A stretch of DNA of 64,000 nt from the sequence record PP216085. The stretch is one strand, 5' to 3'. Within the stretch, counting starts at the first letter, position 1. Each line of letters begins with the position of its first letter. Shown here in pieces: positions 43,453 through 60,363 of this stretch. The position numbers and the translations under genes were made by a program. Under the pieces are notes generated by a model that searched no databases, was not told the origin of the DNA, and saw only the letters and a program-made list of their open reading frames with translations. This DNA is from Escherichia phage vB_EcoM_HZ_ZJUN4.

Positions 43453-43638
43453 ATGAAACGTTGTGAATTAATTCGAAATGTTGCTATTGCAATTTCTGCT
43501 TCTGCTTTTAGTTTTTCAATGTTTGTTGGATTTATATGTGGATTATTAACTACAGCAGAAAACGTTTTTTCACTTGTAGTAGCATTTTTAATTGGTTTAA
43601 TCGCTATTGTTATGGATAAAATTTCTAAAGGTGAATAG
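43453..43638 (+). CDS. small membrane protein (two predicted TM segments)
   Basis: 61-aa strongly hydrophobic ORF with its own early promoter. Confidence 0.5.
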   Translation: MKRCELIRNVAIAISASAFSFSMFVGFICGLLTTAENVFSLVVAFLIGLIAIVMDKISKGE

Positions 43639-54950: not shown

Positions 54951-55284
54951 AATTTTGGTTTTATGTGTAGGATTAATTTCATTTTCTGCGTTAGCAAATA
55001 CATCATACACTGAAATTAGAGAGTATGCAAACCGTACTGCCGCGGATTATTGTGGGAAAAATAAAGCATGCCAAGCTGAATTTGCACAGAAATTAATATA
55101 TGCATATAAAGACGGAGAAAGAGATAAATCAAGCAGATATAAAAATGATACTTTATTAAAACGATATGCTAAAAAGTGGAATACCTTAGAATGTTCAGTT
55201 GCGGAGGAGAAAGATAAAGCCGCTTGTCATTCAATGGTTGACCGTTTGGTAGATTCTTATAATCGAGGATTGAGTACTAGATGA
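54943..55284 (+). CDS. small secreted Cys-containing protein
   Basis: 113 aa; signal peptide MTKILVLCVGLISFSALA; four Cys in the mature part. Confidence 0.5.
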   Translation: MTKILVLCVGLISFSALANTSYTEIREYANRTAADYCGKNKACQAEFAQKLIYAYKDGERDKSSRYKNDTLLKRYAKKWNTLECSVAEEKDKAACHSMVDRLVDSYNRGLSTR

Positions 55285-55760
55285 TTGTAAAATATATCAA
55301 GGGCGATATTGTCGCCCTATTTCTTCAAGGTAATATTATTGCGCACGGATGCAACTGCTTCCACACAATGGGCTCTGGTGTAGCGGGTCAATTAGCAAGA
55401 GCCTATCCTAAAATTTTAGAAATAGATAAAACCACTACCGAATACGGTTCTCGTGATAAATTAGGCGATATGTCTATTGTTTTTAAGCATAGCCCTACGG
55501 GATTTGGTATATGCTATAACCTGTATACACAATACGAACCGGGTCCTAATCTTGATTATGGTGCTTTAGTAAATTGCATGATAGAATTAAATCTACAGGC
55601 AGAAACCCTTTTGTTTAAACCAGTAATTTACATTCCACGCATAGGTTGCGGTATTGCTGGAGGCGATTGGGATAAGGTTTCTAAATTAATCGACATGTTT
55701 ACTCCTGATATTGATTTAATAGTGGTGGATTATGAAAGTACATTACCCGCATCCGTTTGA
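55281..55760 (+). CDS. macro-domain-like protein (ADP-ribose binding/processing fold)
   Basis: 159 aa; GDIVALF...NIIAHGCNC...MGSGVAGQLA and IPRIGCGIAGGDW resemble macro-domain motifs. Confidence 0.55.
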   Translation: MIVKYIKGDIVALFLQGNIIAHGCNCFHTMGSGVAGQLARAYPKILEIDKTTTEYGSRDKLGDMSIVFKHSPTGFGICYNLYTQYEPGPNLDYGALVNCMIELNLQAETLLFKPVIYIPRIGCGIAGGDWDKVSKLIDMFTPDIDLIVVDYESTLPASV

Positions 55761-55944
55761 CCCTAAAAATAAAGCGGAAATTATTCGTCAATGGGAACGC
55801 ATTTGCCGTACTAAATGCCCAATTAATAGTCCACATGATGTAGATAAAGACTACATCGGAACATTCGTTGAATATACCTTTATTGATAAGAAAGGTCGTA
55901 AACAACATGTAGAAGAATATTGCTTAAAGGTTACATGGTTATGA
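55732..55944 (+). CDS. hypothetical small protein
   Basis: 70-aa ORF overlapping the end of the macro-domain gene. Confidence 0.4.
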   Translation: MKVHYPHPFDPKNKAEIIRQWERICRTKCPINSPHDVDKDYIGTFVEYTFIDKKGRKQHVEEYCLKVTWL

Positions 55945-56126
55945 GTTTAAGTAAAGAACAAAAAGACAGACTGTTTTCTCTTATTCACGAAGTTATTGAT
56001 AAAAATAGTGAATTGGAAAAAGTTTGCGATGAATGCGGTCCTTTTAATACCGACGAATACGAAGAACTGTGTAAAGATTTCGACGATAAAGAACAAGAAC
56101 TTATTGATTATATAAATTCCTTATGA
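55941..56126 (+). CDS. small helical protein, member of a tandem paralog family
   Basis: About 61 aa, MSLSKEQKDRLFSLIHEVI...ELIDYINSL; track ORF 55920 contains this. Confidence 0.5.
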   Translation: MSLSKEQKDRLFSLIHEVIDKNSELEKVCDECGPFNTDEYEELCKDFDDKEQELIDYINSL

Positions 56127-56311
56127 TTACTCGCGAACAAAAGAATGAAATACGATTTTTAATCAGCGAAATTATTAGTTTAGAACGAGATTTATCTTTT
56201 GAATTGGCTTCGGATTATGGAGATGCTGAAACATACTACGAATTAGTAAAATCTATCGATAAAGCTGAAAATGATTTAGAAACATATTTAGAAAATTTAA
56301 CTAAGGACTAA
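56123..56311 (+). CDS. small helical protein, paralog family
   Basis: 62 aa, MITREQKNEIRFLISEII...LETYLENL. Confidence 0.5.
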   Translation: MITREQKNEIRFLISEIISLERDLSFELASDYGDAETYYELVKSIDKAENDLETYLENLTKD

Positions 56312-56312
56312 G

Positions 56313-56894
56313 ATGGCGAGTTTAATTTTTACTTATGCAGCAATGAATGCTGGAAAATCTGCTTCTCTTTTGACTGCTGCGCATAATTATAAAGAACGCG
56401 GAATGAGTGTATTAGTTCTTAAGCCTGCTATTGATACTCGCGATTCTGTTTGTGAAGTCGTTTCTCGCATTGGAATTAAGCAGGAAGCGAATATTATTAC
56501 GGATGATATGGATATTTTTGAGTTCTATAAATGGGCTGAAGCACAAAAAGATATTCATTGCGTATTTGTAGATGAAGCACAGTTTTTAAAAACTGAACAG
56601 GTGCATCAATTAAGCCGAATTGTCGATACATATAATGTTCCTGTTATGGCTTATGGTCTAAGGACTGATTTCGCTGGAAAATTATTTGAAGGTTCTAAGG
56701 AACTTTTGGCGATTGCAGATAAACTTATTGAACTGAAGGCAGTTTGTCATTGCGGTAAAAAAGCGATTATGACAGCTCGATTAATGGAAGATGGAACACC
56801 AGTTAAAGAAGGTAATCAAATCTGTATTGGTGATGAAATTTATGTTTCTTTGTGTAGAAAACATTGGAATGAATTAACTAAAAAGCTTGGTTAG
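56313..56894 (+). CDS. tk: thymidine kinase
   Basis: 193 aa as in T4 Tk; P-loop AAMNAGKSASLL; C-terminal Cys/His cluster. Confidence 0.9.
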   Translation: MASLIFTYAAMNAGKSASLLTAAHNYKERGMSVLVLKPAIDTRDSVCEVVSRIGIKQEANIITDDMDIFEFYKWAEAQKDIHCVFVDEAQFLKTEQVHQLSRIVDTYNVPVMAYGLRTDFAGKLFEGSKELLAIADKLIELKAVCHCGKKAIMTARLMEDGTPVKEGNQICIGDEIYVSLCRKHWNELTKKLG

Positions 56895-56936
56895 TCCAAA
56901 AGTTATAAATAGGTTTATCTAACTAAAGGGGTATAT

Positions 56937-57149
56937 ATGCTACAATTAACTGAAAAGCAACTTCGCAATCTTACTGTGCTTCAATTAGATGAAATTCGTA
57001 GGGAAGTTGGAAATATCATTTCAGCTTTGCGTCGAGAAGTATCGCTCAACCAATCTCCGGCAGACTATACTAGATTGCGAAATTTTGAAAAATACCTTGA
57101 TAAAGTTAAGGCCGTGCACCGGCATAAAGTAAATACAGGACAAAAATGA
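56937..57149 (+). CDS. small helical protein (rI.1 position), paralog-family-like
   Basis: 70 aa, [12 protein letters not shown]...FEKYLDKV. Confidence 0.5.
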
Positions 57150-57161
57150 TAGGAGGCCTTT

Positions 57162-57455
57162 ATGGCCTTAAAAGCAACGGCACTATTCGCCATGCTAGGA
57201 TTAGCGTTTGTTTTATCTCCGCCGATTGAAGCGAATGTCGATCCTCATTTTGATAAATTTATGGAATCTGGTATTAGGCACGTTTATACACTTTTTGAAA
57301 ATAAAAGCGTAGAATCGTCTGAACAATTCTATAGTTTTATGAGAACGACCTATAAAAATGACCCGTGCTCTTCTGATTTTGAATGTATAGAGCGAGGCGC
57401 GGAGATGGCACAATCATACGCTAGAATTATGAACATTAAATTGGAGACTGAATGA
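57162..57455 (+). CDS. rI: lysis inhibition regulator RI
   Basis: 97 aa; N-terminal signal-anchor MALKATALFAMLGLAFVLSPPIEA; position next to tk. Confidence 0.85.
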   Translation: MALKATALFAMLGLAFVLSPPIEANVDPHFDKFMESGIRHVYTLFENKSVESSEQFYSFMRTTYKNDPCSSDFECIERGAEMAQSYARIMNIKLETE

Positions 57456-57838
57456 AATTCAGCGACTTTTCACAAAGTGGAAAACCTTCAAAGGCAGATG
57501 AATACTTAGGTTTATTAATGGCTGCACAAGCTTATTTTCATTCTGCACATTTTGAAACTAAAAGTTATGCTAGACACAAAGCATACGATTTTATTTTTTC
57601 CGAGTTGCCAGATTTGATTGATAAATTTGGTGAGCAATATTTGGGGTATTCTGGTAGAAAATACACACCTTCAATTCCAGATGCTAGTAAACTTCCTACA
57701 GACACAATTAAAATGATTGATCGTATACTAGACCAATCTAACATCATTTACAAAGAAATGCCTCCAGCCATTCAAAGCACGATAGATGATATTACTGGAA
57801 TGTTTTATCAAAGTAAATATCTTCTTTCCCTAGAATAA
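57452..57838 (+). CDS. hypothetical protein (rI.-1 position)
   Basis: 128-aa ORF, ATGA overlap with rI stop. Confidence 0.5.
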
Positions 57839-57843
57839 CATTA

Positions 57844-57866
57844 GTCTCCTTCGGGAGACTTTTTTC
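57844..57866 (+). terminator. intrinsic terminator
   Basis: GTCTCC-TTCG-GGAGAC then TTTTTT. Confidence 0.75.
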
Positions 57867-57875
57867 ATTTTACCG

Positions 57876-57905
57876 GTTTACTTTCCATTTGAGCTGTGAT
57901 ACTAT
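57876..57905 (+). promoter_or_regulatory. T4-type early promoter
   Basis: GTTTAC, spacer, GTGATACTATACAACTATC. Confidence 0.6.
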
Positions 57906-57933
57906 ACAACTATCGGATAAAGAGGAGAACATC

Positions 57934-58122
57934 ATGAAAATTGAAGCACTTAATCAAGAAGGAAATATCTACGTCATCATTAATGGTGATTTTTTCGTCG
58001 ACATGGATGAAGTTACTAGTGAAGAACTTGAAGAACTTCTTAAGAAACGTTATGATATGTGTGATGAAGCTGCAACTCATATGGCGTGTGCAATATTCTC
58101 TCTTTCATATGTGGTGGAATAA
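57934..58122 (+). CDS. hypothetical small protein
   Basis: Start at ATG 57934 after a GAGGAG RBS; 62 aa. Confidence 0.5.
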
Positions 58123-58325
58123 TGATTAGTATCGAACAAGCAGATAAAATTAAAGAATTGGTAGCTTTAATTCGCAAAGCAGATGAGGAACTTAGTGACT
58201 TTGCTTGGTTTTCGGCAGGCATTGCAAATAAAGGTATTGAAGAATTTGAAGCTAAAGTTGATAATGCTGTAGAAGCTTTAGATATGTTTCTTGATGAAAT
58301 TATCGATCACAATACGAGAGTTTAA
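58122..58325 (+). CDS. small helical protein, paralog family
   Basis: TAATG overlap; [17 protein letters not shown]...LDMFLDEI. Confidence 0.5.
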   Translation: MISIEQADKIKELVALIRKADEELSDFAWFSAGIANKGIEEFEAKVDNAVEALDMFLDEIIDHNTRV

Positions 58326-58327
58326 GT

Positions 58328-58522
58328 ATGCTGACACACGAACAGTTTGAAAAAATCATTAAATTAGCACGTGATGTTGAAATAGATTCATATCAATTAG
58401 CAGTTGAGCATTGTGAAGGATATTCATACGAAGGTATAGCAGCAGCTAAAAGAGATTTGGATAAATCTAAAGCTAAGTTAGTTCAATATCTTGAAATGAT
58501 TAGGTGGAATAATGAAAACTGA
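58328..58522 (+). CDS. small helical protein, paralog family
   Basis: 64 aa, MLTHEQFEKIIKLARDV...LVQYLEMI. Confidence 0.5.
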   Translation: MLTHEQFEKIIKLARDVEIDSYQLAVEHCEGYSYEGIAAAKRDLDKSKAKLVQYLEMIRWNNEN

Positions 58523-58685
58523 AAAGCAGATGTTTTTAATGAAGCTAATTGAAGAATATGCTAATGCAGTTTCTGACTATGAGTGTTCTTCTCGTGAAAG
58601 GGGTATAGCTTTCGCAAAAGAAGAAATGAAAATCATGGTTGATGCTCACACAAAGCTTCAGAATTTTATTGAAAACGTCATTTAA
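58512..58685 (+). CDS. small helical protein, paralog family
   Basis: 57-aa ORF below the track cutoff, hand-translated: MKTEKQMFLMKLIEEY...LQNFIENVI. Confidence 0.4.
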   Translation: MKTEKQMFLMKLIEEYANAVSDYECSSRERGIAFAKEEMKIMVDAHTKLQNFIENVI

Positions 58686-58687
58686 CG

Positions 58688-58717
58688 GTTTACAAGTTGG
58701 CAAGGTTATGGTATAGT
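58688..58717 (+). promoter_or_regulatory. T4-type early promoter
   Basis: GTTTAC, spacer, TATGGTATAGTAAT. Confidence 0.5.
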
Positions 58718-58849
58718 AATCTTGTCAACTGCTAAGGAGAAGAGAATGAAAATTTTGTTTGTTGTGTATGTGATGATTCAATATAATTACCCAATGTTTA
58801 CTTATAATCTGGTGAACAACATTATTGATATTATTCAAAGGAGCATGTA

Positions 58850-59035
58850 ATGACAAGTGAGCAGGCTTTTAAATTAAGAGAATTAATTGAGATGTATAGT
58901 AAAGCTGTTCATGCATCAACAGTTATTGATGAATCAGCTTTCTCCGGACATGCTAATAAGATTAAATACAAAACTCTTATGGAAGAAGCTAAAGTAAATC
59001 TTGATTCTTATATTGAAACTTTAATTGGTGAATAA
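58850..59035 (+). CDS. small helical protein, paralog family
   Basis: 61 aa, MTSEQAFKLRELIEMY...LDSYIETLIGE. Confidence 0.5.
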   Translation: MTSEQAFKLRELIEMYSKAVHASTVIDESAFSGHANKIKYKTLMEEAKVNLDSYIETLIGE

Positions 59036-59036
59036 C

Positions 59037-59303
59037 ATGAGCTTTCCTAAATTAGAAGTAGGCGATTTAGTCTTAACAAAATTGTGGAATGATGCTCAAT
59101 CAGTAGAAATCTGTCAATATCGTGGAGCAACAGGTAATTTGATGTACACGATTTATAACCCAGAAATTTTGTTAGAGTGTCATTTGGAACGCTTTATAAA
59201 AGACACCGATAGTATGCCTTATAGTGTATCGATTGTACGTAAATCTGATACAAAGGAATACTCTAAAATTTTAGAACAAATTCATGCCAATAAAAAGGAT
59301 TAA
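59037..59303 (+). CDS. hypothetical protein
   Basis: Start at ATG 59037 immediately after the previous stop; 88 aa. Confidence 0.5.
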   Translation: MSFPKLEVGDLVLTKLWNDAQSVEICQYRGATGNLMYTIYNPEILLECHLERFIKDTDSMPYSVSIVRKSDTKEYSKILEQIHANKKD

Positions 59304-59304
59304 T

Positions 59305-59835
59305 ATGAAACGATTAGTACTAGAAGTTAGTTCACTTTTTGGTGAATTGGCTATAGAAAAAGTAAATAATATGTATCGTTTGACGCAAGAAGACGATATG
59401 CTATATTTTACGCCTAGCGAAATTATTCATTTAACCCAAATTGAAAAACCTTACACTGATAAAATTGTAAGCATTAATGATGAGCATAAAATTCATTTTT
59501 ATTCTTTATGCCCAGGATTTAATATTGAAAGCGAGTCAATATGCTTATCAATTAATAATTGGGATAATTTTATAGCTAAGATTAAATATTTCTATTATTC
59601 TAATGAAAGAAAACATGGTTTAAAATGGTTTAAAAATTGCAATGCTATTATTACTAACGCTTGTAATCAAAATTATGAAACTGTTTTAAATGTATCAAAA
59701 TGCTATGAAGAGGGAGATGTCTTAACTATTCGTCAATCGGTAAATGATGTTAATGTTGTTGTATTAAACAAAGAAGAAGCTGTTTTATTAAAGACTTATC
59801 TTGATTCTGTCATTCCAACTATGATTTCAAAGTGA
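59305..59835 (+). CDS. hypothetical protein, tandem paralog A
   Basis: Start at ATG 59305 (AAGGA RBS); C-terminus ...EEAVLLKTYLDSVIPTMISK. Confidence 0.5.
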   Translation: MKRLVLEVSSLFGELAIEKVNNMYRLTQEDDMLYFTPSEIIHLTQIEKPYTDKIVSINDEHKIHFYSLCPGFNIESESICLSINNWDNFIAKIKYFYYSNERKHGLKWFKNCNAIITNACNQNYETVLNVSKCYEEGDVLTIRQSVNDVNVVVLNKEEAVLLKTYLDSVIPTMISK

Positions 59836-59841
59836 GGAAAT

Positions 59842-60363
59842 ATGTTTATTTCAAGTGGAAGTGGTTTAATTCGTGTTGAATTTAAAAATGACATCTTTCT
59901 TATTCAAGGAGATGATATTATTAAAATGAGTTATGACGAAATCAAGAAAATTTGTCATGCTCTTGAAAGTCATGGAAAAGTGAACGCTGTTATTGATATT
60001 GGCGATTTATGGGTGACACTTTATGAAGTATCCGAAGGATTTAACATTGAAGATGAAAATAACATTTTAGCTATTGATAAAAGAAGTGATTTGTTTGATG
60101 TATTAAAAATTTATGAACAGCCAAATGGCGGAAGAAAAGCTGTATTGATTTATCAAAAACCGCATTCATGCGGAACTGCTTCAATCATTTCAAATATTGA
60201 AGATGAAACTGATACTTATATGTGTGTTTTAAAAGCTGGTGGTGATCGTCATCCGGATTTTATTTCTATTCGTCAAAACAATGAAGAAATTTCATTATCA
60301 AAATCAGAAGCTGAAGCTATGATTAAGTATTTAACAACTGTTACACCTTCAATGAAAGGATAG
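59842..60363 (+). CDS. hypothetical protein, tandem paralog B
   Basis: 173 aa; C-terminus ...SEAEAMIKYLTTVTPSMKG parallels the upstream gene. Confidence 0.5.
   Translation: MFISSGSGLIRVEFKNDIFLIQGDDIIKMSYDEIKKICHALESHGKVNAVIDIGDLWVTLYEVSEGFNIEDENNILAIDKRSDLFDVLKIYEQPNGGRKAVLIYQKPHSCGTASIISNIEDETDTYMCVLKAGGDRHPDFISIRQNNEEISLSKSEAEAMIKYLTTVTPSMKG

What the first reader, a model, noticed from the sequence alone, without database searches (positions are those of the whole stretch)
55941..59035. Tandem family of at least six ~60-aa helical paralogs
ORFs at 55941, 56123, 56937, 58122, 58328, 58512 and 58850 share a pattern: M-x-x-x-EQ/EKQ near the N-terminus, then hydrophobic heptads, ending in an L-x-x-Y/F-[LI]-E-x-[LI] motif ([61 protein letters not shown]). 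They flank tk and rI and are often translationally coupled. A diversifying multi-copy small-protein family in an early region suggests host-factor binding or decoy functions.
Basis: seen in the sequence. Interest (0 to 1): 0.55.

Follow-up and report, generated by a model that had tools for sequence, protein, structure and literature searches.

The report
Six small helical-hairpin paralogs (DUF7438)
Six of the seven flagged small genes in this T4-like phage really are diverged copies of one catalogued but uncharacterised family of roughly 60-residue acidic two-helix proteins (Pfam DUF7438; T4 genes tk.2, tk.1, mobD.4, mobD.3, mobD.2a plus one copy T4 lacks); what they do is still unknown.

Summary
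The window is a Tequatrovirus (T4-like) genome segment. Six of the seven ORFs (starts 55941, 56123, 58122, 58328, 58512, 58850) match Pfam PF24219/DUF7438 over its full length (52-71 bits; cut-off 25). Each is recovered by a leave-one-out profile, and no shuffle or reversed sequence reaches its score. They are orthologs of T4 tk.2, tk.1, mobD.4, mobD.3 and mobD.2a, plus a sixth type that T4 lacks.

The seventh ORF (56937, rI.1) is not a detectable member. It is a separate, more widely conserved protein with a similar predicted hairpin shape.

AlphaFold2 models MobD.4 as a confident two-helix hairpin. All members found are acidic (pI 4.1-5.3). Orthologs are under purifying selection (dN/dS 0.12-0.43). 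Copies near tk range from 0 to 6 among T4-like phages.

Published T4 data show early transcription, detected protein for four members, and dispensability for all five T4 members.

No function is known, and fold searches return only generic hairpins. My best inference is that these are accessory protein-binding modulators acting in host takeover or counter-defence, possibly redundant.

The family is already catalogued, so novelty is low. The useful lead is to delete all copies together.

The parts
55941..56126 (+). DUF7438 member, ortholog of T4 tk.2 (61 aa, pI 4.2). Its start overlaps the tk.3 stop (ATGA).
   Evidence: PF24219 71.5 bits; phrog_653; T4 naming.
56123..56311 (+). DUF7438 member, ortholog of T4 tk.1 (62 aa, pI 4.3). 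ATGA overlap with tk.2; it ends 1 nt before tk.
   Evidence: PF24219 54.3 bits; leave-one-out E 1e-8.
58122..58325 (+). DUF7438 member, ortholog of T4 mobD.4 (67 aa; the T4 copy is 60 aa with a shorter loop). TAATG overlap with mobD.5.
   Evidence: PF24219 61.6 bits; AF2 hairpin H4-30/H37-66, pLDDT 90.4; loop indels among orthologs.
58328..58522 (+). DUF7438 member, ortholog of T4 mobD.3 (64 aa). The loop CEGYSY-GI is conserved across genera.
   Evidence: PF24219 56.8 bits; orthologs at 59-66% identity in other genera.
58512..58685 (+). DUF7438 member, intact 57-aa version of T4 mobD.2a. It overlaps mobD.3 by 11 nt.
   Evidence: PF24219 52.4 bits; phrog_2758; the T4 reference copy is split by a frameshift.
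58850..59035 (+). DUF7438 member with no T4 counterpart (61 aa). TAATG overlap with the 34-aa mobD.2 ORF.
   Evidence: PF24219 55.9 bits; phrog_4859; found in 192 phage records; absent from a whole-genome scan of T4.
56937..57149 (+). rI.1 (70 aa). It is a separate hairpin-shaped protein with a basic C-terminal tail, linked to lysis inhibition.
   Evidence: No Pfam hit; hhalign probability 0.5-2%; own phrog_1826; AF2 single-sequence hairpin; PMC2962797.
57843..57860 (+). Terminator-like hairpin after rI.-1. It separates the tk/rI transcription unit from the mobD.5-mobD.2a unit.
   Evidence: A terminator is annotated at the same place in phage G4507.
57876..57905 (+). T4 early-promoter-like sequence (GTTTAC ... 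TACTAT) upstream of mobD.5, mobD.4, mobD.3 and mobD.2a.
   Evidence: Read by eye; it falls below the scan threshold. A mobD.5 promoter is reported in T4 by PMC1702504.
58689..58717 (+). Promoter-like site (TTTACA-17-TATAGT with an upstream TG) ahead of mobD.2 and the sixth member.
   Evidence: 10 of 12 matches.

Best explanation
Shown. Six of the ORFs are genuine, anciently diverged paralogs of one phage family, Pfam DUF7438. They correspond to T4 tk.2, tk.1, mobD.4, mobD.3 and mobD.2a, plus a type T4 lacks. Each encodes an acidic protein of about 60 residues that is predicted to be a single antiparallel two-helix hairpin. The genes lie in two clusters on either side of tk-rI.1-rI-rI.-1, on the same strand as tk, and are mostly translationally coupled to their neighbours. 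In T4 they are transcribed early, four are detected as protein, and all are dispensable in laboratory hosts.

Inferred. The conserved columns (the N-terminal M-[IL]-[TS]-x-E-Q helix start, hydrophobic positions 10/13/14/17, and the C-terminal L-x-x-[YF]-[LIV]-[EN]-x-[LI]) build a common scaffold at the open end of the hairpin. That hydrophobic stripe is wider than two helices need, so the hairpin probably dimerises into a four-helix bundle or docks onto a partner. The loop end and the exposed faces differ between paralogs.

The most likely function is therefore a set of accessory protein-binding modulators, acting in host takeover or counter-defence. Each paralog would have its own or an overlapping target, and redundancy would explain why single-gene disruptions are silent.
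For: Family membership:
- Pfam full-length hits for all six.
- Leave-one-out recovery and shuffle/reversal controls.
- An exhaustive HMMER search of 1.84 billion representatives finds only 30 hits at E<=1e-3; the listed ones are mostly about 60-aa proteins.
- Named relatives come from Tequatrovirus, phage JS10 and Gaprivervirus TH54.

Fold: AF2 pLDDT 90.4, helices 4-30 and 37-66.

Acidity: pI 4.1-5.3 for nearly all of the 78 HMM hits in the fetched loci, including all six window copies.

Real genes under selection:
- dN/dS 0.12-0.26 for five types and 0.43 for the sixth, against 0.016 for tk.
- MobD.3 and MobD.4 are early RNA and early protein; Tk.1 and Tk.2 are early RNA and middle protein (PMC9697503 supplement).

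Accessory nature:
- All five T4 members are non-essential in HIDEN-SEQ.
- nrdC.11-mobD.3 is deletable (PMC9825161).
- Copies near tk range from 0 to 6 in 40 IMG/VR loci.
- tblastn counts across phage records: tk.1 in 190 and the sixth type in 192, against mobD.3 in 585 and tk.2 in 741.

Scaffold versus variable surface: column statistics; the MobD.4 loop is indel-prone while the MobD.3 loop is conserved.

Neighbourhood: tk.4, two genes upstream, is the anti-DarTG2 factor AdfM.
Against: - No experiment assigns any function, partner or oligomeric state to any member.
- In the one conditional HIDEN-SEQ table I could read, these genes show no significant effect (log2FC -0.13 to -0.50, adjusted p 1.0). 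None is named among the anti-defence hits in that paper's text.
- Fold searches give only generic hairpins or uncharacterised phage proteins, so the fold says nothing about the target.
- Lying next to an anti-defence gene in T4's densely packed early regions is weak evidence.
Confidence: 0.5

Rival explanations
1. The paralogs do not act separately. Adjacent, translationally coupled hairpins (tk.2+tk.1; mobD.4+mobD.3+mobD.2a) pair with each other into hetero-oligomeric four-helix bundles. They would form one or two complexes, in the way tandem Esx/WXG100 hairpin pairs do.
For: - Tight coupling gives roughly equimolar synthesis.
- The hydrophobic stripe at the open end is wider than a lone hairpin needs.
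- tk.1 (190 records) is about as frequent as the T4-type tk.2 allele (168 records at >=80% identity).
- The mobD.4/.3/.2a trio nearly always travels together (504, 585 and 582 records).
- Three members also sit in a row in Gaprivervirus TH54.
Against: - Many phages carry only one copy near tk, so a lone hairpin must be functional (L013, L014, L018, L020, L022, L025).
- 573 records carry a divergent tk.2 allele, while tk.1 is found in only 190 records in all; the IMG/VR loci with that allele (L003, L005, L007) lack tk.1.
- Co-occurrence of adjacent genes is confounded by linkage.
- No multimer model could be run.
Confidence: 0.15
2. They are acidic nucleic-acid mimics. As dimers they would imitate DNA or RNA and block a host nucleic-acid-binding protein, such as a restriction enzyme or nucleoid protein, as Ocr, Arn or Gam-type proteins do.
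For: - Strongly acidic (pI 4.1-5.3 for nearly all members found).
- Small, helical and made early.
- Many columns on the variable faces are more than 40% Asp/Glu.
Against: - No fold or sequence match to any known mimic.
- The acidic residues are not at conserved positions apart from E5.
- Acidity is common among small phage early proteins.
- No restriction-related phenotype was reported.
Confidence: 0.1
3. They belong functionally to the lysis-inhibition cluster (rI.1, rI, rI.-1) that they flank.
For: Physical proximity. rI.1 and rI.-1 are accessory modulators of lysis inhibition (PMC2962797). rI.1 has a similar predicted hairpin shape.
Against: - rI.1 is not homologous.
- The mobD cluster is separated from rI.-1 by a terminator and has its own promoter.
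- tk lies between tk.1 and rI.1.
- rI.1 orthologs were recovered from 27 of the fetched loci and are seen in several loci with no family member (L024, L028, L030, L040, L042).
- No signal peptide or membrane segment is evident by eye in the sequences.
Confidence: 0.05
4. The similarity is compositional, or the ORFs are non-functional spacers kept only for translational coupling.
For: Pairwise similarity is weak: the best pair is tk.2/tk.1 at E 2e-4, and most pairs are above 0.01. Only 4 columns are invariant among the six.
Against: - Pfam hits run far above the cut-off.
- 0 of 1000 shuffles reach the real scores.
- Other helical K/E-rich ORFs do not score.
- dN/dS is well below 1 for five types.
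- Proteins are detected in T4.
- The conserved Glu-Gln uses synonymous codons (GAA CAA, GAA CAG, GAG CAG).
Confidence: 0.02

Closest known systems
Pfam PF24219 (DUF7438); PHROGs phrog_653, phrog_2758 and phrog_4859; T4 genes tk.2, tk.1, mobD.4, mobD.3, mobD.2a
   Same: The six window proteins are members and orthologs. They match the full model and have the same length, the same genomic position and the same neighbours.
   Different: Nothing essential differs. This phage has an intact mobD.2a, a longer MobD.4 loop than T4, and a sixth copy that T4 lacks. PHROGs splits the family into three groups; Pfam unites them.
ColE1 Rop/Rom (63-aa helical hairpin that dimerises into an antiparallel four-helix bundle)
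   Same: Size and the predicted helix-loop-helix architecture. Rop's properties are from my own knowledge. It is a plausible model for how a 60-residue hairpin becomes a stable unit.
   Different: No sequence relationship: no Rop hit in Pfam at E<=1 or in the PDB profile search at E<=10. Rop binds RNA kissing complexes on a plasmid; nothing suggests RNA binding here. It is an analogue only.
WXG100/Esx proteins (tandem paralogous helical hairpins forming heterodimeric four-helix bundles)
   Same: Tandem, co-transcribed paralogous helical hairpins.
   Different: No conserved W-x-G loop motif and no secretion-system context; about 60 residues rather than about 100; many phages carry a single copy. 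WXG100 properties are from my own knowledge.
   Same: Small size, predicted helical hairpin, a helix start resembling L-T-x-x-Q-L, and a Y-L-D-x-V near the C-terminus.
   Different: No detectable homology. It has a basic C-terminal tail, is more widely conserved than DUF7438, and has genetic links to lysis inhibition (PMC2962797).

Membership tests
Pfam DUF7438 (PF24219) | Whole-protein score above the curated gathering cut-off (25 bits), covering the 57-position model end to end | tested here: met
   The six ORFs score 52.4-71.5 bits over profile positions 1-56/57. rI.1 (56937), mobD.5 and tk.3 give no hit.
Pfam DUF7438 (PF24219) | Homology independent of the database model: recovery by a profile built without the tested copy, and failure of shuffled or reversed controls | tested here: met
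   Leave-one-out E 1e-8 to 0.014 among 894 ORFs, always the top non-training hit. 0 of 1000 shuffles reach the real score.
Pfam DUF7438 (PF24219) | Single two-helix hairpin of about 55-67 residues | tested here: met
   AF2 model of the MobD.4 ortholog has pLDDT 90.4 with H4-30 and H37-66. This is a prediction, not a solved structure, and only one member was modelled.
DUF7438, applied to the seventh ORF (rI.1, 56937-57149) | Detectable sequence or profile similarity to the family | tested here: not met
   No Pfam hit. hhalign probability 2% and 0.5-2% profile against profile. A similar hairpin shape is predicted, so very remote homology cannot be excluded.
MobA/MobB molybdopterin-guanine dinucleotide biosynthesis proteins (RefSeq product name on MobD.4 orthologs) | Similarity to a MobA or MobB domain | tested here: not met
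   No such Pfam or NCBIfam hit at E<=1 and E<=0.01 respectively. At 60-67 aa the protein looks too short. The name appears to come from the T4 gene label mobD.4.
Helicase loader (label of phrog_4859 and of some RefSeq records for the 58850-type copy) | Similarity to a known helicase-loader family (T4 gp59, DnaC or similar) | tested here: not met
   Only DUF7438 is hit in Pfam, nothing in NCBIfam and nothing significant in PDB sequences. T4's real loader, gp59, is a different gene elsewhere in the genome.
Rop/Rom | Sequence similarity to Rop, and RNA-binding residues on helix 1 | tested here: not met
   No Rop family or chain appears. RNA binding is not testable with these tools.
WXG100/Esx | Conserved W-x-G turn, about 100 residues, link to type VII secretion | tested here: not met
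   No conserved W-x-G in the alignment columns. The proteins are 54-67 residues and sit in a phage early-gene context.

The most novel reading that the evidence does not exclude
The hairpins are a redundant or combinatorial toolkit: a common dimerising scaffold that displays paralog-specific surfaces, each neutralising a different host immune sensor or host factor. Copies are gained, lost, swapped between genera and even recombined helix-by-helix (the tk.2/tk.1 chimeras). Single knockouts are silent, so a phenotype appears only when all copies are removed.
Probability: 0.2. Interest if true: 0.6.

Novelty: already known. Interest (0 to 1): 0.3.

Why it matters
About half of T4's genes still have no function, and this family accounts for four to six of them in T4-type phages.

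This work adds several points:
- These ORFs are one family with a confident common fold.
- They are expressed and under purifying selection.
- They vary in copy number between phages.
- They sit next to a proven anti-defence gene.

Together these give a concrete reason why transposon screens saw no phenotype (possible redundancy) and a concrete experiment: delete all copies at once, then test natural hosts and defence systems.

The work also flags wrong product names ('MobD molybdopterin...', 'helicase loader') that are spreading through phage annotations.

Tried and rejected
- Extra copies in the window: a family HMM scan of all 894 ORFs found none. A recurrent marginal hit at 43453-43638 is a hydrophobic, membrane-like ORF (by eye) and is spurious.
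- Extra copies genome-wide in T4: only the five known genes. PseT.1 is marginal (E 0.004 and 0.2 with the two HMMs; hhalign 22%; no Pfam hit) and is left open.
- rI.1 as a member: rejected.
- mobD.5 and tk.3 as members: rejected.
- Function from fold: Foldseek against PDB had no hit at E<=0.001, only DHp, CnrX and other generic hairpins. BFVD returned only uncharacterised phage proteins.
- Function from sequence: the PDB profile search, NCBIfam and PHROGs categories gave nothing reliable.
- Literature: no paper mentions DUF7438 or mobD.4, or pairs tk.2 with bacteriophage T4. mobD.3 and mobD.5 appear only in passing. A Mosigvirus early-protein toxicity screen concerns other proteins.
- Non-T4 relatives P0123 and P0126 sit among unannotated small ORFs and gave no functional clue.
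Full report
**What the window is.** The region 55500-59500 is 95-97% identical to many Tequatrovirus genomes, including teqhad, T6 and pSs-1. Mapping onto the T4 reference annotation and by protein similarity gives this gene order on the + strand:
- tk.4 (55281)
- tk.3 (55732)
- tk.2 (55941)
- tk.1 (56123)
- tk (56313)
- rI.1 (56937)
- rI (57162)
- rI.-1 (57452)
- a terminator (57843-57860)
- mobD.5 (57934)
- mobD.4 (58122)
- mobD.3 (58328)
- mobD.2a (58512)
- a promoter-like site (58689-58717)
- mobD.2 (58746)
- a 61-aa ORF that T4 lacks (58850)
- a Phage_tudor ORF (59037)
- two MobD.1-like ORFs

**Checking the observation.** All seven ORFs and the quoted C-terminal motifs are present. The junctions are as described: ATGA overlaps at 55941 and 56123, TAATG at 58122 and 58850, and an 11-nt overlap at 58512.

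Six ORFs match Pfam PF24219 (DUF7438) end to end at 52-71 bits against a 25-bit cut-off. rI.1 matches nothing. PHROGs places the six in phrog_653, phrog_2758 and phrog_4859, with cross-hits between these groups.

Pfam's seed probably contains close orthologs, so I tested homology within the window alone:
- A profile built from five copies always ranks the sixth as the best non-training hit among 894 ORFs, E 1e-8 to 0.014.
- None of 1000 shuffles of the left-out protein reaches its real score.
- The reversed sequences score about 0-5 bits.

Pairwise similarity is weak. The best pair is tk.2/tk.1 at E 2e-4. The family is therefore old and visible mainly at profile level, but it is not a compositional artefact.

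For rI.1, a profile of 18 orthologs against a 68-sequence family profile gives hhalign probability 0.5-2%. It is a different family. A single-sequence AF2 model of rI.1 is also a helical hairpin (pLDDT 90), which explains why it looked similar by eye.

No other member lies in the 64-kb window.

**Anatomy of the family.** A 22-sequence alignment and a 68-sequence alignment show the same conserved columns:
- M1, [LI]2, [TS]3, E5 (97%), Q6 (78%)
- Hydrophobic residues at 10, 11, 13 (L, 96%), 14, 17, 24 and 27
- A variable, indel-prone middle section
- Hydrophobic residues at 39, 42 and 46, a small residue at 49, L53 (94%), [YF]56, [LIV]57, [EN]58 and [LI]60

AF2 models the MobD.4 ortholog as two antiparallel helices, 4-30 and 37-66, with pLDDT 90.4 and pTM 0.74.

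The best-conserved and most hydrophobic segments are the start of helix 1 and the end of helix 2. These lie side by side at the open end of the hairpin. The loop end varies. The hydrophobic stripe there (positions 10, 11, 13, 14, 17 and 53, 54, 56, 57, 60, 61) is wider than two helices need. From this I infer, but have not shown, self-association into a four-helix bundle or docking on a partner.

Nearly all of the 78 HMM hits in the fetched loci are acidic (pI 4.1-5.3) and 54-67 residues long. The exceptions are the two T4 mobD.2a fragments and one weak hit.

Constraints differ by type. The MobD.3 loop CEGYSY-GI is kept across genera. The MobD.4 loop gains and loses residues; the T4 copy is 7 residues shorter.

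**Distribution and evolution.** An exhaustive HMMER scan of 1.84 billion representative proteins finds only 30 at E<=1e-3. Named relatives come from Tequatrovirus, phage JS10 and Gaprivervirus TH54. Predicted structures that look like relatives come from Citrobacter phage Merlin and Escherichia phages p000v and EcS1. Three longer metagenomic proteins also pass the Pfam cut-off and sit among small unannotated ORFs.

In 40 IMG/VR loci centred on tk, copies near tk number 0 to 6 and are always on the tk strand. They tend to fall in number as tk diverges.

tblastn counts across 50,697 phage records were:

| Query | Records with a match | Note |
|---|---|---|
| tk | 1709 | 501 at >=95% identity |
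| tk.2 | 741 | 168 at >=80%; 573 are a divergent allele below 60% |
| tk.1 | 190 | |
| mobD.4 | 504 | |
| mobD.3 | 585 | |
| mobD.2a | 582 | |
| sixth type (58850) | 192 | |

Two haplotypes therefore exist upstream of tk: T4-type tk.2 plus tk.1, or a single divergent tk.2 allele. Two in-frame tk.2/tk.1 chimeras joined at the loop exist in databases (P0003, P0089). In Gaprivervirus TH54 the sixth type sits directly upstream of the mobD.4 and mobD.3 types.

Within ortholog groups, dN/dS is 0.12-0.26. The sixth type gives 0.43, but on few substitutions. For comparison, tk is 0.016, mobD.5 is 0.16-0.21 and rI.1 is 0.28. These are real, constrained accessory genes. They are not rapidly diversifying within a type.

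A whole-genome scan of T4 finds only tk.2, tk.1, mobD.4, mobD.3 and a frameshift-split mobD.2a.

**What is known experimentally (T4 orthologs).**
- All five are classed as early transcripts. MobD.3 and MobD.4 are detected as early proteins and Tk.1 and Tk.2 as middle proteins. MobD.2a protein is not detected (PMC9697503 supplement).
- mobD.5 has its own promoter, and its transcript is insensitive to RegB (PMC1702504).
- All five are non-essential in transposon sequencing and show no significant change in the one conditional table I could read (preprint 10.1101/2025.11.20.689424).
- nrdC.11-mobD.3 can be deleted (PMC9825161).
- The same preprint shows that tk.4, two genes upstream of tk.2, is AdfM, a macrodomain anti-DarTG2 factor.
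- No paper in the library mentions DUF7438 or mobD.4, or assigns a function to any member.

**Mechanism.** Shown: a family of expressed, dispensable, acidic, predicted two-helix hairpins, in early transcription units, with variable copy number.

Inferred: a conserved scaffold that probably oligomerises and displays type-specific surfaces, working as accessory protein-binding modulators in host takeover or counter-defence. Redundancy is a possible reason for the silent single knockouts.

Identity is near certain. The functional part I rate at roughly 0.4, and the combined statement at 0.5.

Rivals, with my estimates:
- Hetero-oligomeric complexes of adjacent copies: 0.15
- Nucleic-acid mimicry: 0.1
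- A role in lysis inhibition: 0.05
- Compositional artefact or spacer ORFs: 0.02, effectively refuted

**Comparison with the known.** The six are members of DUF7438 and orthologs of named T4 genes, so the feature is already catalogued, although its function is unknown. Rop and WXG100 proteins are architectural analogues only. They show no sequence relationship, and their defining motifs are absent.

The database names 'molybdopterin-guanine dinucleotide biosynthesis protein MobD' and 'helicase loader' on family members have no support.

Fold searches against PDB and BFVD return generic hairpins or uncharacterised phage proteins.

**Verdict.** Novelty is low because the family is already known. 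Interest is modest (0.3), mainly as a well-defined target for a multi-copy deletion experiment.

Noticed in passing
L002:2497-2678 (T4 NC_000866 58049-58165 and adjacent), compared with window 58512-58685: The T4 reference mobD.2a is split by a frameshift into 38-aa and 33-aa pieces. The window, T2, most Tequatrovirus records and the T4D annotation used by HIDEN-SEQ (174 nt) have an intact 57-aa ORF. Either it is a real lesion in the sequenced T4 stock or an old sequencing error.
   Followed up: partly
window 58122-58325 and 58850-59035; records: Family members carry propagated wrong product names: 'molybdopterin-guanine dinucleotide biosynthesis protein MobD' (apparently from the gene label mobD.4), 'helicase loader'/'kilA' (phrog_4859) and 'cell wall hydrolase'. 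None is supported by Pfam, NCBIfam or PDB searches.
   Followed up: yes
window 59284-59835 and 59842-60363: Two adjacent ORFs (183 and 173 aa) both carry T4_y05I_N plus T4_y05I_C domains (MobD.1-like 'putative transcription factor'). This is a second tandem paralog pair just downstream of the hairpin cluster.
   Followed up: no
window 55281-55760: Macrodomain protein orthologous to T4 tk.4, recently named AdfM and shown to protect T4 from DarTG2 (preprint 10.1101/2025.11.20.689424). It lies two genes upstream of the first hairpin gene.
   Followed up: partly
L003:2870-3058, L005:5803-5988, L007:5803-5988; proteins P0003, P0089: Some Tequatrovirus contigs with tk 99-100% identical to the window's carry one divergent tk.2 allele (about 54% identity, the type also seen in other genera) and no tk.1. 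Two database proteins are in-frame tk.2/tk.1 chimeras joined at the hairpin loop. This points to allele replacement and helix-level recombination.
   Followed up: partly
window 56937-57149 (rI.1): The AF2 single-sequence model is a helical hairpin (H14-38, H41-67, pLDDT 90). An ortholog in Serratia phage X20 is named '50S ribosomal protein L29' in BFVD, but profile comparison with E. coli L29 gives probability 0.9%, so the name looks unfounded.
   Followed up: partly
L045:21109-21336 (T4 pseT.1, outside the window): PseT.1 (75 aa) starts MISWHQFEHLKGLIYE and ends DLHDYIQSLVEKK. It scores marginally against the family HMM (E 0.004 and 0.2) with hhalign probability 22% and no Pfam hit. It may be a very distant relative.
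   Followed up: partly
window 59037-59303: An 88-aa Phage_tudor domain ORF (PF24144, E 3e-40) follows the sixth hairpin gene. Both appear to be missing from T4, where mobD.2 abuts mobD.1.
   Followed up: no
L001:1733-2324 (teqhad) compared with window 55732-55944: teqhad has two extra small ORFs (70 aa and 57 aa, VOG2423 and VOG9178) between tk.4 and tk.2 that the window lacks. Neither matches the family HMM. This accounts for the roughly 380-bp gap in the two-piece BLAST match.
   Followed up: partly
L054:2932-3556 (Gaprivervirus TH54): Three family members lie in a row, overlapping each other, in the order 58850-type, mobD.4-type, mobD.3-type. The sixth type therefore occupies a different position from the one it has in Tequatrovirus.
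   Followed up: partly
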